Virus record (IMG/VR): IMGVR_UViG_3300023290_000168
Length of the DNA stretch: 5,653 nt
Direction: 5' to 3' (one strand)
DNA from: a virus
Taxonomy: Duplodnaviria; Heunggongvirae; Uroviricota; Caudoviricetes
Part shown: one piece after another, positions 2,068 to 5,653 of the stretch
How positions within the stretch are numbered: position 1 is the first letter of the stretch
How the letters are laid out: every line of letters starts with the position of its first letter
Translations under genes and position numbers: made by a program
Notes under the pieces: model-generated
The model's database searches: none
What the model saw: only the letters and a program-made list of their open reading frames with translations
What the model was told of the DNA's origin: nothing

Positions 2068-2284
2068 ATCTCACCTTCCCCTGTGATTAACCTGATGATA
2101 TTGGACAAAAAAACAACGCAGGCTGACAAACGATAAAATTTGCCTTTCACGTGAGCTAAATTGCATCAATGGAGTGATTTACATCTAAAAATGAAGGTGA
2201 ATTGAGATATGGTTCACTTTAGCTCACCTAGAAGCTGAAATTTTGCCGCTATTTTTTTACACTTAAGAGAAAAATGAGGTGATT
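2068..2284. promoter_or_regulatory. Divergent dsdX / dsdC control region (promoters and presumed DsdC binding sites)
   Basis: A 217-bp AT-rich spacer between divergently oriented start codons (dsdX ATG at 2067 on minus, dsdC ATG at 2285 on plus). It contains a perfect 10-bp inverted repeat, GTGAGCTAAA at 2151-2160 and TTTAGCTCAC at 2218-2227. LysR-type regulators typically bind dyad sites in such divergent regions. Exact -35/-10 elements are not confidently assignable by eye. Confidence 0.5.
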
Positions 2285-3220
2285 ATGGAACCCCTTCGTG
2301 AAATAAGAAATCGACTGCTTAACGGCTGGCAACTATCAAAACTGCATACTTTTGAAGTGGCTGCCAGGCATCAGTCCTTCGCCCTTGCGGCAGAGGAATT
2401 GTCGCTGAGCCCCAGTGCGGTAAGTCACCGTATCAATCAGCTGGAAGAAGAATTAGGTATTCAGTTGTTTGTTCGTTCCCATCGCAAAGTGGAATTAACG
2501 CACGAGGGGAAACGTGTTTATTGGGCGCTAAAATCGTCGCTGGATACCCTGAATCAGGAAATTCTGGATATCAAAAATCAGGAGTTATCGGGAACGTTAA
2601 CGTTGTATTCCCGGCCCTCTATCGCCCAATGCTGGTTGGTGCCCGCATTAGGTGACTTTACACGCCGATATCCGTCTATTTCGCTCACCGTGCTCACTGG
2701 TAATGACAATGTCAATTTGCAACGTGCCGGAATCGATTTGGCGATCTACTTTGATGATGCGCCGTCAGCGCAATTGGCTCATCACTTTCTGATGGATGAA
2801 GAAATCCTGCCAGTTTGCAGCCCGGAGTACGCTCATAGACATGATTTAACCAACACGGTAATTAACCTGCGTCACTGTACGTTGCTCCATGACAGACAGG
2901 CATGGAGCAACGACTCCGGTACGGATGAATGGCATAGTTGGGCGCAACATTATGCGGTTAATTTGCCGACATCTTCTGGAATTGGCTTTGATCGCTCTGA
3001 TTTAGCCGTTATCGCCGCGATGAATCATATTGGGGTGGCGATGGGAAGGAAACGTCTGGTACAAAAAAGGCTTGCCAGTGGTGAGCTCGTCGCGCCGTTT
3101 GGCGATATGACGGTGAAATGCCATCAGCATTATTACATCACTACATTACCGGGCAGGCAGTGGCCAAAAATTGAGGCATTTATTACTTGGTTAAGAGAAC
3201 AGGTAAAAACCACTTCATAA
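2285..3220 (+). CDS. dsdC: LysR-type transcriptional activator of D-serine utilisation genes (311 aa)
   Basis: Track ORF 2279..3220 begins at a GTG (MIMEPL...). I prefer the ATG at 2285 (MEPLREIRNRLLNGWQL...), which has AGGTG about 5 nt upstream and gives 311 aa. N-terminal LysR-family HTH (TFEVAARHQSFALAAEELSLSPSAVSHRINQLEEELG) followed by a co-inducer-binding domain. Divergent from dsdXA, as expected for DsdC. Confidence 0.9.
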   Translation: MEPLREIRNRLLNGWQLSKLHTFEVAARHQSFALAAEELSLSPSAVSHRINQLEEELGIQLFVRSHRKVELTHEGKRVYWALKSSLDTLNQEILDIKNQELSGTLTLYSRPSIAQCWLVPALGDFTRRYPSISLTVLTGNDNVNLQRAGIDLAIYFDDAPSAQLAHHFLMDEEILPVCSPEYAHRHDLTNTVINLRHCTLLHDRQAWSNDSGTDEWHSWAQHYAVNLPTSSGIGFDRSDLAVIAAMNHIGVAMGRKRLVQKRLASGELVAPFGDMTVKCHQHYYITTLPGRQWPKIEAFITWLREQVKTTS

Positions 3221-3319
3221 TGAATAAGACCACGAGTTCCTGGTGTGCCTTATTCGGCATTGCTAGTGCGAATTTAATAATTTACGGTTTTTACGTGGTT
3301 TTAGGGATAAACACAAGAA

Positions 3320-3334
3320 TGGTGTCCCCTGCAG
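3320..3334 (-). mobile_element. Prophage attR core: displaced 3'-terminal fragment of tRNA-Arg (argW), bacterial/prophage junction
   Basis: Minus strand of 3320-3334 reads CTGCAGGGGACACCA, which matches the acceptor 3' strand plus discriminator and CCA of E. coli argW as I recall it (...GGTTCGATTCCTGCAGGGGACACCA). Similarity stops at 3335. An excisionase gene lies immediately on the prophage side and dsdC on the chromosomal side, the known context of the KplE1/CPS-53 attR. No complete tRNA is present. Confidence 0.6.
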
Positions 3335-3407
3335 ACATCTACTTGAGGCGGCAGGGGATTGATTGGAATGGTGTTTTTTAGATGTGAGAAATATTTTACC
3401 CGCTATT

Positions 3408-3608
3408 TTACCCATTGGCGCGGCTTAAGAGCTTATTTTTGAATTCACAATGGTCACGATATAACCATCTTGCTCGCCCGTGGATAACTTTGGCTTTTGG
3501 CAGGTCGCCGGACTTAATCCGGTCATAGATGAAGGTTTTACCGAAGCCAGTATCGGCCATGATGAATTTCAAATCAACCAGTGAATCAGGTTGTAGTTCG
3601 TGTTGCAT
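3408..3608 (-). CDS. torI: Prophage excisionase / recombination directionality factor (winged-helix Xis family), also known as Tor response-regulator inhibitor (66 aa)
   Basis: Track ORF of 66 aa, MQHELQPDSLVDLKFIMADTGFGKTFIYDRIKSGDLPKAKVIHGRARWLYRDHCEFKNKLLSRANG, which I recognise as TorI of KplE1. Its size and its position as the first gene inside attR fit an Xis. ATG at 3608-3606, stop TAA at 3410-3408. Confidence 0.85.
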   Translation of the reverse strand: MQHELQPDSLVDLKFIMADTGFGKTFIYDRIKSGDLPKAKVIHGRARWLYRDHCEFKNKLLSRANG

Positions 3609-3627
3609 GAGTGCTATCTCCGAATAG

Positions 3628-3643
3628 GGAATCGAACCTGCAA
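3628..3643 (-). other. tRNA-Arg T-arm-like fragment (16 nt) within the prophage arm, upstream of torI
   Basis: Minus strand of 3628-3643 reads TTGCAGGTTCGATTCC, identical to the variable-loop/T-arm segment of argW as I recall it. The flanking bases do not complete a T-stem, so this is a fragment and not a tRNA gene. Confidence 0.4.
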
Positions 3644-3650
3644 ATCAGGC

Positions 3651-3673
3651 AATAAAAAACCGCCATCAGGCGG
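3651..3673 (-). terminator. Rho-independent terminator (minus strand) after the 55-codon ORF and upstream of torI
   Basis: Minus strand reads GCCGCC-tgat-GGCGGt followed by TTTTTTATT (stem 3660-3673 region, U-tract from 3651-3659). The TGA stop of the 55-codon ORF sits in the loop. Confidence 0.6.
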
Positions 3674-3833
3674 CTTGGTGTTCTTTCAGTTCTTCAATTC
3701 GAATATTAGTTACGTCTGCATGTGCTATCTGCGCCCACAGCATCCAGTGGTCATAGCAGTCGTTGATGTTCTCTGCTTCGATAACTCTGTTGAATGGCTC
3801 TCCATTCCATTCACCTGTGACTCGGAAGTGCAT
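3666..3833 (-). CDS. Hypothetical small protein (55 aa), prophage-encoded
   Basis: Not in the track (below its size cutoff). My own translation from ATG 3833-3831 gives MHFRVTGEWNGEPFNRVIEAENINDCYDHWMLWAQIAHADVTNIRIEELKEHQAA, ending at TGA 3668-3666. GGAG lies 7 nt upstream of the ATG (plus-strand CTCC at 3841-3844) and an intrinsic terminator follows directly. Caveat: two terminator-like hairpins sit immediately upstream and there is no obvious dedicated promoter. Confidence 0.4.
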   Translation of the reverse strand: MHFRVTGEWNGEPFNRVIEAENINDCYDHWMLWAQIAHADVTNIRIEELKEHQAA

Positions 3834-3841
3834 TTATCATC

Positions 3842-3868
3842 TCCATAAAACAAAACCCGCCGTAGCGA
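3842..3868 (-). terminator. Terminator-like hairpin 2 (minus strand): CTCGC-tacg-GCGGG followed by TTTTGTTTTAT
   Basis: Minus-strand stem at 3855-3868 (5 bp, one G-U pair, 4-nt loop) followed by a U-rich tract at 3842-3854, immediately upstream of the RBS of the 55-codon ORF. Confidence 0.45.
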
Positions 3869-3872
3869 GTTC

Positions 3873-3901
3873 AGATAAAAGAAATCCCCGCGAGTGCGAG
3901 G
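3873..3901 (-). terminator. Rho-independent terminator 1 (minus strand) ending the coupled cassette: CCTCGC-actc-GCGGGG followed by ATTTCTTTTATCT
   Basis: Minus-strand stem at 3886-3901 (6 bp, GC-rich, one G-U pair, 4-nt loop), beginning 4 nt after the stop of the ASCH-fold gene, then a U-rich tract at 3873-3885. Confidence 0.5.
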
Positions 3902-3905
3902 ATTA

Positions 3906-4190
3906 TCATTCATTGTCGATATTCACCTTTATAGCGAACACCTTTACCGGTTTATCGCCGAAGTGCGGATGTGTGATTGTCTTGATTTCATATCCGTCAT
4001 ACGGGACGTCAATTCTGCGGCTGGAATCGTCGCGCTTCGGATATCCCTTTGTGATAATCAGGCGGTCATACTCGCGGAACATAATTCGCTTATTCCAGTA
4101 GTCATTACACAGGCGATACTCTTCCGTTTTCTCTCCGCGAATCATGGCATCGAAGTATTCACCTTTAACGGCAAGTTGCAGGTTAGCCAC
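3906..4190 (-). CDS. ASCH-domain (PUA-like fold) protein, 94 aa, prophage-encoded
   Basis: Track ORF of 94 aa, MANLQLAVKGEYFDAMIRGEKTEEYRL..., with a G19-x-K21-x-x-E24-x-R26 match to the ASCH signature GxKxxExR. GTG start at 4190-4188 preceded by AAGGAGG with a 6-nt spacer; stop TGA at 3908-3906. The start overlaps the end of the upstream gene by 8 nt. Confidence 0.75.
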   Translation of the reverse strand: MANLQLAVKGEYFDAMIRGEKTEEYRLCNDYWNKRIMFREYDRLIITKGYPKRDDSSRRIDVPYDGYEIKTITHPHFGDKPVKVFAIKVNIDNE

Positions 4191-4467
4191 GACCTTCCTC
4201 CTTTGGCTTGTGAATTTGTATCGTCATGCCGCTTTGAGTGGTGACTACAACGACAGAACCAGGCTGAAGACTGTTAAGATTGAATGCTTCGTAAAACGAA
4301 GCCAAGGCCAGCGCTTTTTTATTCTTTCGGTTCCACCAACGCCATCCATTGCTACAGGCTACACTGACAATCCACTGTCCACTCCTGTAAGCCATATAAA
4401 ACCAGATGAGCAAAACCTGAATGAATGCTATCCAGTCAATAATCGTATATTTCGCGAAGGAGACCAT
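4183..4467 (-). CDS. Small single-pass membrane protein (94 aa), hypothetical, prophage-encoded
   Basis: Track ORF 4183..4470 begins at a TTG. I prefer the ATG at 4467-4465 (MVSFAKYTIIDWIAFIQVLLIWFYMAYRSGQW...), which has AGGAGG 7 nt upstream. One N-terminal hydrophobic helix (about residues 8-27) followed by a basic stretch (WRWWNRKNKK). The ATG overlaps the TGA of the upstream gene (TGATG). Confidence 0.6.
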   Translation of the reverse strand: MVSFAKYTIIDWIAFIQVLLIWFYMAYRSGQWIVSVACSNGWRWWNRKNKKALALASFYEAFNLNSLQPGSVVVVTTQSGMTIQIHKPKEEGRG

Positions 4468-5132
4468 CAATTAACCTCCTGCGGCGGTTCCGGTAGAGGC
4501 ATCCAGTACAAGGCGTTCCCTAACCACGATAAAGTGCCGTCGCTCAACTCCACGTATTCCCCTTGTACCTGTCCTGCCATATACTCGCCGTGCTTTGAAT
4601 AAATTAAAATCCAATCATCTTGAGCGGGCATTCGCTCACTACAGCTTATCCAACCATCCGGAGTTACCGGATAGTTGCCAGCCTCATACGCGACCCTTAT
4701 CCAGTGCATAAACATTTCAGTACTTACACATCCACAATCAACATCAATTTTGTCATGCTGCTGTTCCAGCCATTGCTCAAAAGTTAACTTGTAAGTTTGG
4801 CTTACAGGTTCGGCTTCCAGTTCTGCAATGCGCTTCTCTGCAGCTTCCAGCTCAACGCGCAGCTTCCCTACCGTTAGCGCAATTTCCTCGTTCTCCTGGT
4901 CGCGGCGTTTGATGTATTGCTGGTTTCTTTCCCGTTCATCCAGCAGCGCCAGCACGGTTTCTGGTCCGGTCAGAAATTTGAAGGCGTTGAGCGCATCAAT
5001 ATCCACACCGTAATCCTTAAGTTCCTGTTCACTTAACAAATCATCATCAACTGGCAACATTAACAGGCGTTCCATTGCCGGAATTGCACGTTCTGCCGCC
5101 TCACGCAGTGCCTGATAGTTAATTTTGGTCAT
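4467..5132 (-). CDS. Phage protein with N-terminal coiled-coil region and C-terminal DUF551-like domain (Ea22-like family), 221 aa
   Basis: Track ORF of 221 aa. N-terminus MTKINYQALREAAERA... and the coiled-coil-like VGKLRVELEAAEKRIAELEAE resemble Ea22-like prophage proteins. C-terminus WISCSERMPAQDDWILIY...LYWMPLPEPP matches the DUF551 pattern as I remember it. ATG at 5132-5130 with GGGGGA RBS; only 1 nt separates it from the stop of the upstream gene. Confidence 0.8.
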   Translation of the reverse strand: MTKINYQALREAAERAIPAMERLLMLPVDDDLLSEQELKDYGVDIDALNAFKFLTGPETVLALLDERERNQQYIKRRDQENEEIALTVGKLRVELEAAEKRIAELEAEPVSQTYKLTFEQWLEQQHDKIDVDCGCVSTEMFMHWIRVAYEAGNYPVTPDGWISCSERMPAQDDWILIYSKHGEYMAGQVQGEYVELSDGTLSWLGNALYWMPLPEPPQEVN

Positions 5133-5133
5133 A

Positions 5134-5433
5134 TCACATCCCCCTGAAGCCGTTGCATTTACGTAAAAAATCGCAGATATAGCCCTTCATTTTTTCGTGC
5201 CAATCTCGATCATTCCCATTGCACCAACCATCAGGTGGAGTCCAGTTTTCTATCAGAGCAGCCATTTTCTTTGCTTTCGCCGGAGTAGCTGTTGCGGTAT
5301 CGCAGTAATGACGAGTGTCAACCAACGTATCCATACCATCGATATCAAGTACGCAAAACCATGTGTGATTCGGCATTTCAACAGATGGTATTTGTTGCCC
5401 ACGTCGACGTTTATCAATAAGACATACAGTCAC
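5134..5433 (-). CDS. Hypothetical phage protein (99 aa), Cys-rich
   Basis: Track ORF of 99 aa, MTVCLIDKRRRGQQIPSVEMPNHTWFCVLDIDG... GTG start at 5433-5431 preceded by AAGGAGG with a 6-nt spacer. The start overlaps the stop of the upstream partial ORF (GTGA). Six cysteines. I recognise no domain. Confidence 0.65.
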   Translation of the reverse strand: MTVCLIDKRRRGQQIPSVEMPNHTWFCVLDIDGMDTLVDTRHYCDTATATPAKAKKMAALIENWTPPDGWCNGNDRDWHEKMKGYICDFLRKCNGFRGM

Positions 5434-5653
5434 TGGTTGCCTCCTTTGCGAAGCTGGGCAGCAAAGTCAACTAACCACTCAGTCATTTCAACCTTCCCTA
5501 CCAGGTCTGAACCAGGGTGCATACAGCAATCACTCTGCGCCGCTTTGAAATCCTTATACTCATATTCTTGGGCCACCAGATTTTTTGCAGCTTCTATAGC
5601 TGAACCGCCCCGGGAATCCTGGAGACTAAACTTCCTGAGAAAGAGGTAAACAG
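5430..5653 (-). CDS. Hypothetical phage protein, C-terminal 74 codons (5' end beyond right edge)
   Basis: Not in the track because it is edge-truncated. The minus-strand frame is open from the window edge to TGA at 5432-5430. My translation reads ...VYLFLRKFSLQDSRGGSAIEAAKNLVAQEYEYKDFKAAQSDCCMHPGSDLVGKVEMTEWLVDFAAQLRKGGNQ. Its stop overlaps the next gene's GTG, as in the rest of the cassette. Confidence 0.5.
   Translation of the reverse strand, partial: VYLFLRKFSLQDSRGGSAIEAAKNLVAQEYEYKDFKAAQSDCCMHPGSDLVGKVEMTEWLVDFAAQLRKGGNQ

What the first reader, a model, noticed from the sequence alone, without database searches (positions are those of the whole stretch)
3906..4190. Phage-borne ASCH-fold protein with intact GxKxxExR signature at the end of the cassette
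The 94-aa protein carries GEKTEEYR (G19/K21/E24/R26), matching the ASCH-domain signature. The ASCH/PUA-like fold is associated with RNA or modified-nucleoside binding (E. coli YqfB is an ASCH-type N4-acetylcytidine amidohydrolase). A minimal ASCH protein translationally coupled to a small membrane protein in a prophage accessory region has no function known to me. It could read or modify nucleic acid during infection or lysogeny.
Basis: partly seen in the sequence, partly recalled or inferred. Interest (0 to 1): 0.45.

Follow-up and report, generated by a model that had tools for sequence, protein, structure and literature searches.

The report
Small phage ASCH-fold protein, function unknown
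The 94-residue gene is real and does encode a minimal ASCH (PUA-like) domain with a conserved Lys-Glu-Arg pocket, but public databases already label it that way, it sits in about a quarter of complete E. coli genomes, and its function is still untested.

Summary
Window 3906-4190 (- strand) is a 94-codon gene with a GTG start and a strong Shine-Dalgarno site. GEKTEEYR lies at residues 19-26. Variation falls mainly on third codon positions. K21, E24 and R26 are conserved in 96-100% of a diverse set of relatives, from a family of 753 clusters at 50% identity.

The K21/E24/R26 triad matches human EOLA1, an N4-acetylcytidine deacetylase. It does not match the YqfB type, which has Thr24.

The gene sits in the early-left (exo-xis, 'ea') accessory arm of a CUS-3-like P22-type prophage next to dsdC. 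The 8-nt overlap with the DUF4752 membrane-protein gene is real, but the partner is not conserved.

RefSeq already names this protein 'ASCH domain-containing protein', and about 27% of complete E. coli genomes carry it. The best guess is a nucleobase-pocket binder or hydrolase made early in infection. This is a correct but ordinary finding.

The parts
3906..4190 (-). Coding sequence of the 94-aa minimal ASCH-fold protein (GTG start, TGA stop); identical in length and position to RefSeq WP_000002106.1 'ASCH domain-containing protein'; PHROG family phrog_625
4113..4136 (-). Codons 19-26, GEKTEEYR: the GxKxxExR motif at the end of helix 1 and in strand 2 of the model; K21, E24 and R26 are 96-100% conserved in the family
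4196..4203 (-). Shine-Dalgarno sequence AAGGAGGA, 5 nt upstream of the GTG start; it lies inside the last codons of the upstream gene
   Evidence: read directly from the sequence
4183..4470 (-). Upstream DUF4752 gene (95 aa, one N-terminal hydrophobic helix); its stop overlaps the ASCH start by 8 nt (4183-4190). The neighbour is not conserved in other phages
3853..3904 (-). Two tandem terminator-like hairpins (3904-3883 and 3872-3853) directly after the ASCH stop codon and before the next small ORF
3666..3833 (-). 55-aa ORF (phrog_676, unknown function), the last prophage gene before the att core
3628..3646 (-). Contains the 16-bp prophage attR core annotated in the CUS-3 record (searched as the 19-nt string GATTTGCAGGTTCGATTCC, single copy in the window); it marks the end of the prophage arm that carries the ASCH gene

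Best explanation
Shown: 3906-4190(-) is a genuine, selected gene for a stand-alone 94-residue domain of the ASCH/PUA-like superfamily. It is a trimmed beta-barrel with the order strand1-helix1-strand2-helix2-four strands. The GxKxxExR motif sits at the helix1/strand2 junction. The gene lies in the non-essential early-left (exo-xis, 'ea') arm of a CUS-3-like P22-type prophage inserted next to dsdC. It behaves as an independent mosaic module found in lambdoid, Stx, P22-like and some virulent phages.

Inferred: it is transcribed with the early-left operon at induction or infection, because no promoter-like site lies on its strand. The invariant polar and aromatic residues (K21, E24, R26, W32, R35, Y50, D55, H74) probably line the base-binding pocket typical of this fold. 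A free or flipped-out nucleobase, probably a modified one, would be held there.

The K21/E24/R26 triad is the one used by human EOLA1 to deacetylate N4-acetylcytidine. The most likely activity is therefore binding, and possibly hydrolysis, of an N-modified base in nucleotides or single-stranded nucleic acid early in infection. The purpose would be nucleotide salvage or removing or masking a base modification.

My estimates: fold membership about 0.9; a nucleobase-pocket function about 0.5; hydrolase rather than reader about 0.25.
For: Gene reality: third-position variation of 19/18/51 and a strong RBS. The protein matches phrog_625 at E 1e-51. The family has 753 clusters at 50% identity with E<=1e-3 and occurs in 332 phage records, including 933W, VT2-Sakai, phage 21 and CUS-3.

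Motif and pocket conservation: K21 100%, E24 99%, W32 99%, Y50 98%, R26 96%, R35 91%, H74 89%. hhalign places the motif in register with YqfB and EOLA1, G19/K21/x24/R26 onto the same numbers.

Mechanistic precedent: the EOLA1 K21/E24/R26 pocket deacetylates ac4C. YqfB uses K21/T24/R26/E74. PUA-like domains flip bases into a pocket.

Context: the gene lies between erf/abc-type recombination genes and the att site. An integrase lies 2-4 genes downstream in 17 of 77 diverse prophage loci. In virulent phage C1 the gene sits between helicase and primase. No sigma-70-like promoter is on the - strand in 3200-5653. Exo-xis genes are transcribed early from pL (PMC8614690).
Against: No sequence method reaches significance for ASCH. 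Pfam gives E 0.068. A scan of the 82 diverse relatives one by one against Pfam gives at best E 0.003, and only over the N-terminal ~25 residues. The family profile against PDB sequences gives 3iuw at E 0.17. hhalign gives E 0.14-0.18.

The domain lacks the C-terminal helical part that carries Glu74 in YqfB and Ser128 in ZmASCH.

The Ser/Thr at position 7 said to be universal in the EOLA1/TRIP4 clade is Ala/Pro/Asn here.

The protein is nearly neutral (pI 7.8), which does not point to strong nucleic-acid binding.

No conserved neighbour or domain fusion gives a functional clue. I could not inspect model coordinates, so the claim that the conserved residues line one pocket is inference. No experiment exists for this family.
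Confidence: 0.6

Rival explanations
1. A non-catalytic reader of methylated or otherwise modified DNA, for example N6-methyladenine. It would bind modified sites early in infection, for instance to mask them from modification-dependent restriction or to tune methylation-sensitive processes.
For: ASCH domains have been predicted to read m6A in DNA and are repeatedly linked to N6-adenine methyltransferases (PMC4738411; PMC11037411). Relatives lie next to or near DNA methyltransferases in Helicobacter prophages, an Erwinia phage and a Polaromonas prophage. Lar-type restriction-alleviation genes occur nearby. A viral structural match is annotated as a 'Restriction alleviation protein' (E 7e-6). 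W32, Y50 and F77 are invariant aromatics that could form a cage.
Against: Only about 4 of 73 immediate neighbours are methyltransferases, and none recurs. Methyltransferases are common in phage early regions anyway. The invariant Lys-Glu-Arg triad looks more like a catalytic set than a cage. The m6A-reader role of ASCH has never been shown experimentally. The protein is near-neutral.
Confidence: 0.2
2. A small single-strand-specific ribonuclease like the Zymomonas ASCH protein, degrading host or phage RNA early in infection.
Against: The ZmASCH residues shown to matter are Tyr47, Lys53 and Ser128. Ser128 lies on the alpha4-alpha5 loop, a C-terminal helical region with no counterpart in this 94-residue protein. 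ZmASCH is 143 aa and only 13-18% identical. YqfB-type ASCH proteins show no RNA binding or RNase activity.
Confidence: 0.1
3. The ASCH protein and the DUF4752 membrane protein form a translationally coupled functional pair.
For: The 8-nt overlap and the RBS inside the upstream gene are real. The pair is annotated together in several E. coli genomes, including REL606.
Against: In 80 loci whose ASCH copy is 95-99% identical, the gene overlapping the start belongs to at least five unrelated families: an EaA/DUF551-like protein, a TraR-like zinc finger, a Lar-like protein and others. In 77 diverse prophage loci no neighbour family other than integrase recurs in more than 4 loci. No Pfam family recurs more than twice among the immediate neighbours. 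In APEC O1 the DUF4752 gene is frameshifted while the ASCH gene is intact.
Confidence: 0.05
4. The motif match is coincidental and the protein is not related to ASCH domains at all, or the ORF is not a gene.
For: All sequence-profile matches to ASCH or DUF3850 are below curated cut-offs and confined to about 25 residues.
Confidence: 0.03

Closest known systems
Human EOLA1 (CXorf40A) and the TRIP4-like clade of ASCH domains: N4-acetylcytidine deacetylase
   Different: 94 versus 158 residues, so the C-terminal helical half is missing. Ser/Thr7, reported as universal in that clade, is Ala here and Ala/Pro/Asn across the family. The sequence similarity is not statistically significant (E 0.14). 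No activity has been tested.
E. coli YqfB (PDB 1TE7, 9KYF-H): N4-acetylcytidine amidohydrolase
   Different: The catalytic Thr24 is Glu here. YqfB Glu74 sits in a helical insert that this protein lacks. Only 12-13% identity.
Enterococcus faecalis protein 3IUW ('activating signal cointegrator', about 80 aa) and the Pfam DUF3850 minimal ASCH-like domains
   Different: Function also unknown. 16-20% identity. The window protein itself gives no DUF3850 hit. That 3IUW belongs to DUF3850 is my recollection and was not tested here.
Zymomonas mobilis ASCH (PDB 5GUQ/5GUS): Mg-dependent single-stranded RNA ribonuclease
   Same: PUA-like barrel with the conserved GxKxxxxR motif and a surface pocket.
   Different: 143 aa with extra helices carrying functional residues. 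Tyr47, Lys53 and Ser128 have no demonstrated counterparts here.
EVE and YTH modified-base reader domains (PH1033, VcaM4I, YTHDC2)
   Different: 6-10% identity.

Membership tests
ASCH/PUA-like superfamily (fold level) | [quoted passage not shown] | tested here: met
ASCH/PUA-like superfamily (fold level) | GxKxxExR (or GxKxxxxR) motif at the helix1/strand2 junction | tested here: met
   GEKTEEYR occupies residues 19-26. In 82 diverse relatives G19 is 94%, K21 100%, E24 99% and R26 96% conserved. The motif is described in PMC5615036.
Pfam ASCH domain PF04266 | Score at or above the curated gathering cut-off (21.2 bits) | tested here: not met
   14.3 bits, E 0.068, residues 6-28 only. Of 82 relatives, 6 hit at E <= 0.01 (best 0.003), still consistent with sub-threshold scores.
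Pfam DUF3850 PF12961 (minimal ASCH-like) | Score at or above the gathering cut-off (22.9 bits) | tested here: not met
   The window protein gives no hit. The best among relatives is E 0.0017-0.0018 (18.8 bits), N-terminal part only.
NCBIfam curated families | Any curated model hit | tested here: not met
   No family at E <= 1. RefSeq nevertheless names the protein 'ASCH domain-containing protein', presumably from another resource I could not query.
TRIP4/EOLA1-like ASCH clade | Lys21-Glu24-Arg26 pocket triad with Glu absolutely conserved | tested here: met
   K21/E24/R26 are present and 96-100% conserved. The clade definition comes from 10.64898/2026.08.01.741249.
TRIP4/EOLA1-like ASCH clade | Ser/Thr at position 7 facing the pocket | tested here: not met
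   Position 7 is Ala here and Ala/Pro/Asn across the family. This rests on the ungapped register seen.
TRIP4/EOLA1-like ASCH clade | Deacetylation of free N4-acetylcytidine | not testable with these tools
   Needs an enzyme assay.
YqfB-type amidohydrolases | Thr/Ser nucleophile at position 24 and the acid Glu74 | tested here: not met
   Position 24 is Glu in 99% of the family. The helical insert that carries Glu74 in YqfB is absent from the model.
ZmASCH-type ribonuclease | Tyr47, Lys53 and Ser128 lining a basic cleft; Mg-dependent ssRNA cleavage | not tested
   No residue-level structural alignment or coordinates were available. The protein is 49 residues shorter.
Known anti-phage defence system components (PADLOC) | Hit to a defence-system protein model | tested here: not met
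   No hit at E <= 0.1.

The most novel reading that the evidence does not exclude
The phage protein is a new, trimmed class of ASCH enzyme or reader acting on a modified base. One possibility is a deacylase or dealkylase for N-modified cytosine or adenine in nucleotides or single-stranded nucleic acid. Another is a protein that masks methylated phage DNA from modification-dependent host nucleases. Temperate and virulent proteobacterial phages would deploy it early in infection as a counter-defence or salvage function. That would be the first function assigned to a viral ASCH domain.
Probability: 0.15. Interest if true: 0.6.

Novelty: new member of a known kind. Interest (0 to 1): 0.25.

Why it matters
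The gene is very common. It occurs in 1467-1589 of 5426 complete E. coli genomes, including Shiga-toxin phages 933W and Sakai and the laboratory strain REL606, and in prophages across Proteobacteria. No function is known for it.

ASCH domains have only recently acquired biochemical roles: ac4C deacetylation by YqfB and EOLA1, and deglucosylation of modified phage DNA by BapA, a protein whose AlphaFold 3 model has an ASCH-like barrel. A phage-encoded minimal version with the same Lys-Glu-Arg triad is therefore a cheap and reasonable target for enzymology and for phage-defence tests.

As a sequence finding it adds little. The ASCH label is already in the public annotation, and nothing in the context points to a specific new mechanism.

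Tried and rejected
1. Sequence profiles. Pfam, NCBIfam and PADLOC gave nothing significant for the ASCH protein. PHROGs gave only an unknown-function family.
2. PDB by sequence. The single protein gave nothing. The family profile gave 3iuw at E 0.17 over the motif only.
3. hhalign of the family against YqfB and EOLA1. The alignments are in register but not significant, E 0.18 and 0.14.
4. The AlphaFold database fold search (afdb50) was not available.
5. Domain fusions. Twenty longer relatives carry no informative Pfam domain, only Cys-rich extensions without a family. Several are probably gene-calling artefacts.
6. Conserved-partner search. I looked at 80 near-identical loci, 77 diverse loci and a Pfam census of 73 immediate neighbours. 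No partner emerged. A methyltransferase association is too weak to claim.
7. Exo-xis literature. The well-studied phage Phi24B lacks the gene, and the 933W homologue L0064 is not discussed.
8. Literature searches for phage ASCH functions or anti-defence roles found only annotation mentions.
9. Rfam on the region gave only sub-threshold chance hits.
10. The first related-loci run with the most diverse alignment failed for lack of conserved stretches.

Full report
**What is in the window.** The window carries dsdX (730-2067, -) and dsdC (2279-3220, +). Next comes a TorI-type excisionase gene (3408-3608, -). From about 3628 onward lies the left, non-essential arm of a P22-like prophage.

The prophage arm is 99-100% identical to phage CUS-3 and to prophages at the same site in APEC O1, ATCC 11775 and many ExPEC strains. 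On the - strand the gene order is:
- DUF7739 gene (5134-5433)
- Ead/Ea22-DUF551 gene (4467-5132)
- DUF4752 gene (4183-4470)
- the target ORF (3906-4190)
- a 55-aa ORF (3666-3833)
- the att core annotated in CUS-3, at 3628-3646

In complete prophages, erf and an anti-RecBCD gene lie further upstream, then the immunity region. The target therefore sits in the early-left 'ea' or exo-xis accessory region.

**The observation.** The ORF has 94 codons. It starts with GTG at 4188-4190, 5 nt after AAGGAGGA, and ends with TGA at 3906-3908. GEKTEEYR is encoded at 4113-4136, which gives G19, K21, E24 and R26 exactly as reported. The start overlaps the stop of the DUF4752 gene by 8 nt. The DUF4752 protein has one N-terminal hydrophobic helix.

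The frame is under selection. Among 61 distinct variants of the gene, 19, 18 and 51 sites vary at codon positions 1, 2 and 3. The long antisense ORF (3894-4244, annotated as a hypothetical protein in the CUS-3 record) is broken by stop codons in 7 of the 61 variants.

A G.K..E.R match would occur by chance about once in 1,100 proteins of this size. More important, the motif is conserved across the family. The only correction is that the gene is the penultimate one of the arm, not the last.

**The family.**
- The protein matches PHROG family phrog_625 (unknown function) at E 1e-51.
- An exhaustive HMMER search finds 753 clusters at 50% identity with E <= 1e-3.
- Homologues occur in 332 phage records. 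These include Stx phages 933W and VT2-Sakai, phage 21, CUS-3, Salmonella siphoviruses, and Ralstonia, Pantoea and Erwinia phages.
- Relatives lie in prophages of alpha-, beta- and gamma-proteobacteria and a few other phyla.
- The gene is in 1467-1589 of 5426 complete E. coli genomes, including REL606.

In 82 diverse relatives the most conserved residues are K21 (100%), E24 (99%), W32 (99%), Y50 (98%), R26 (96%), G19 (94%) and R35 (91%). H74 is 89% conserved, and D55 77% with a further 13% Glu. That many invariant polar and aromatic residues in a 94-residue protein points to a specific binding or catalytic site rather than to fold maintenance alone.

**Is it an ASCH domain?** Sequence methods alone do not establish it.
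- Pfam ASCH scores 14.3 bits (E 0.068) against a cut-off of 21.2, and covers only residues 6-28.
- NCBIfam has no hit.
- Among 82 relatives, 6 touch ASCH and 2 touch DUF3850, at E 0.002-0.01.
- A family profile against PDB sequences finds 3iuw at E 0.17.
- hhalign against YqfB and EOLA1 is in register but not significant.

The structural test is positive, though with moderate scores. An AlphaFold2 model built on 126 sequences has pLDDT 86.3 and pTM 0.71. It shows strand-helix-strand-helix followed by four strands.

Together with the conserved motif at the expected structural position, I take fold-level membership as established with about 0.9 confidence. The family is a trimmed version that lacks the C-terminal helices of YqfB, ZmASCH and EOLA1. 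It is not covered by the Pfam ASCH model.

**Which ASCH type?** YqfB uses Lys21, Thr24, Arg26 and Glu74 (PMC9599836). Here position 24 is Glu, so the YqfB-type definition is not met.

A 2026 preprint shows that human EOLA1 deacetylates free N4-acetylcytidine. EOLA1 is a stand-alone ASCH protein of the TRIP4-like clade. It uses a pocket of K21, E24 and R26, and Glu24 is absolutely conserved in that clade. The phage protein has this triad at the same residue numbers.

It lacks the Ser/Thr7 that the authors describe as universal in the clade, having Ala here and Ala/Pro/Asn across the family. So it resembles this clade in its triad, but full membership is not shown.

**Context and expression.** No sigma-70-like promoter is found on the - strand between 3200 and 5653. 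[quoted passage not shown] In virulent phage C1 the homologue lies between a helicase and a primase gene. These points favour a role during infection or induction over a role in the lysogen.

The neighbour is not conserved.
- In 80 loci with 95-99% identical copies, the gene overlapping the start belongs to at least five unrelated families.
- In 77 diverse prophage loci the only recurrent neighbour is an integrase 2-4 genes downstream, seen in 17 loci. Four-nucleotide overlaps with flanking genes are common.
- A Pfam census of 73 immediate neighbours finds no family more than twice.
- DNA methyltransferases, Lar, NUDIX and MazG-like (PRA-PH family) genes turn up nearby now and then. This is not often enough to argue for a link.
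- No defence-system model matches.

**Most likely mechanism.** PUA-like domains hold a free or flipped-out base in a pocket. The two best-characterised stand-alone ASCH proteins with this pocket are hydrolases of an N4-acyl group on cytosine. BapA, a protein with an ASCH-like barrel, removes glucose from modified phage DNA. Another ASCH protein, ZmASCH, is an ssRNA nuclease.

The best-supported reading is that the phage protein binds a nucleobase in a pocket built around K21/E24/R26, probably a modified one, and may hydrolyse a substituent on it. It would act early in infection.

The alternatives I cannot exclude are a pure reader of methylated DNA and a ribonuclease. A functional pairing with the DUF4752 membrane protein is unlikely. 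A coincidental motif is effectively excluded.

**Novelty and verdict.** RefSeq already calls this exact protein 'ASCH domain-containing protein'. JGI calls relatives 'ASC-1-like (ASCH) protein', and some records say 'RNA-binding protein'. I found no experimental work on the family. The well-studied exo-xis model phage Phi24B lacks the gene.

The finding is a further, uncharacterised member of a known superfamily, not a new kind of system. Interest is low to moderate. The most useful new point is that the triad matches the EOLA1 type rather than the YqfB type, which suggests concrete substrates to test.

Noticed in passing
window 3853-3904 (- strand) and 3657-3676: Two tandem terminator-like hairpins (3904-3883 and 3872-3853) lie directly after the ASCH stop codon, and a third follows the 55-aa ORF. 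Five such sites occur in 3200-5653, against 2.2 expected from shuffles. In an N-antiterminated early-left operon they would be read through. Whether they delimit expression is unknown.
   Followed up: partly
window 3408-3646: The attR core annotated in the CUS-3 record lies at 3628-3646 (found with the 19-nt string GATTTGCAGGTTCGATTCC, a single copy). The torI (excisionase/Tor inhibitor) gene at 3408-3608 lies outside it, between the core and dsdC. The excisionase gene therefore appears to belong to the chromosomal side, or to an older KplE1-like remnant, rather than to the CUS-3-type prophage body.
   Followed up: partly
window 4183-4203; loci L023, L039, L057: Unrelated upstream genes in different phages end with the same short tail overlapping the ASCH start by 8 nt (...QEVNRG* in other phages, ...KEEGRG* here). 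The module boundary thus lies inside the last codons of the preceding gene and carries the ASCH ribosome-binding site with it. This is a typical mosaic junction.
   Followed up: partly
window 3894-4244 (+ strand): A 116-aa antisense ORF covering the whole ASCH gene is annotated as a hypothetical protein in the CUS-3 GenBank record (ECRS218_0062). It has stop codons in 7 of 61 variants, and its first codon position coincides with the ASCH wobble position. It is very likely spurious.
   Followed up: yes
proteins P0147, P0169, P0179, P0199, P0142; BFVD A0A8S5UN54: Several relatives carry Cys-rich, zinc-ribbon-like N- or C-terminal extensions with no Pfam match. One viral structural match (168 aa, E 7e-6) is named 'Restriction alleviation protein'. 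These could be true fusions or gene-calling artefacts.
   Followed up: partly
loci L002, L003, L008/L097, L009, L010: Distant homologues in Helicobacter prophages sit between N6/N4 and Dam-type DNA methyltransferase genes. A Polaromonas prophage homologue overlaps a C5-methyltransferase-like gene. An Erwinia phage has a methyltransferase three genes away. The association did not hold up in the wider census.
   Followed up: yes
window 3408-3608 (- strand): The TorI protein matches the PADLOC model 'mad1' (mads_1) at E 7.6e-14. This probably reflects a shared excisionase/AlpA-type helix-turn-helix fold rather than a defence role.
   Followed up: no
locus L001 (APEC O1) 6884-7684: In APEC O1 the DUF4752 gene next to the ASCH gene is frameshifted and the ead/Ea22 gene is truncated, while the ASCH gene is intact.
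   Followed up: no
window 3882-4013 (- strand): A sub-threshold Rfam match to RsmY (19.7 bits against a cut-off of 57, E 0.058) overlaps the 3' end of the ASCH gene and the first hairpin. It is almost certainly a chance match driven by the hairpin.
   Followed up: no
window 4467-5132 (- strand): The gene two upstream of the ASCH gene combines an Ead/Ea22-like N-terminal part (E 4e-29) with a C-terminal DUF551 domain (E 7e-11). In some database entries (P0126, P0127, P0138) Ea22-like sequence is fused in frame to the ASCH domain, probably through deletions or frameshifts at the mosaic junction.
   Followed up: no
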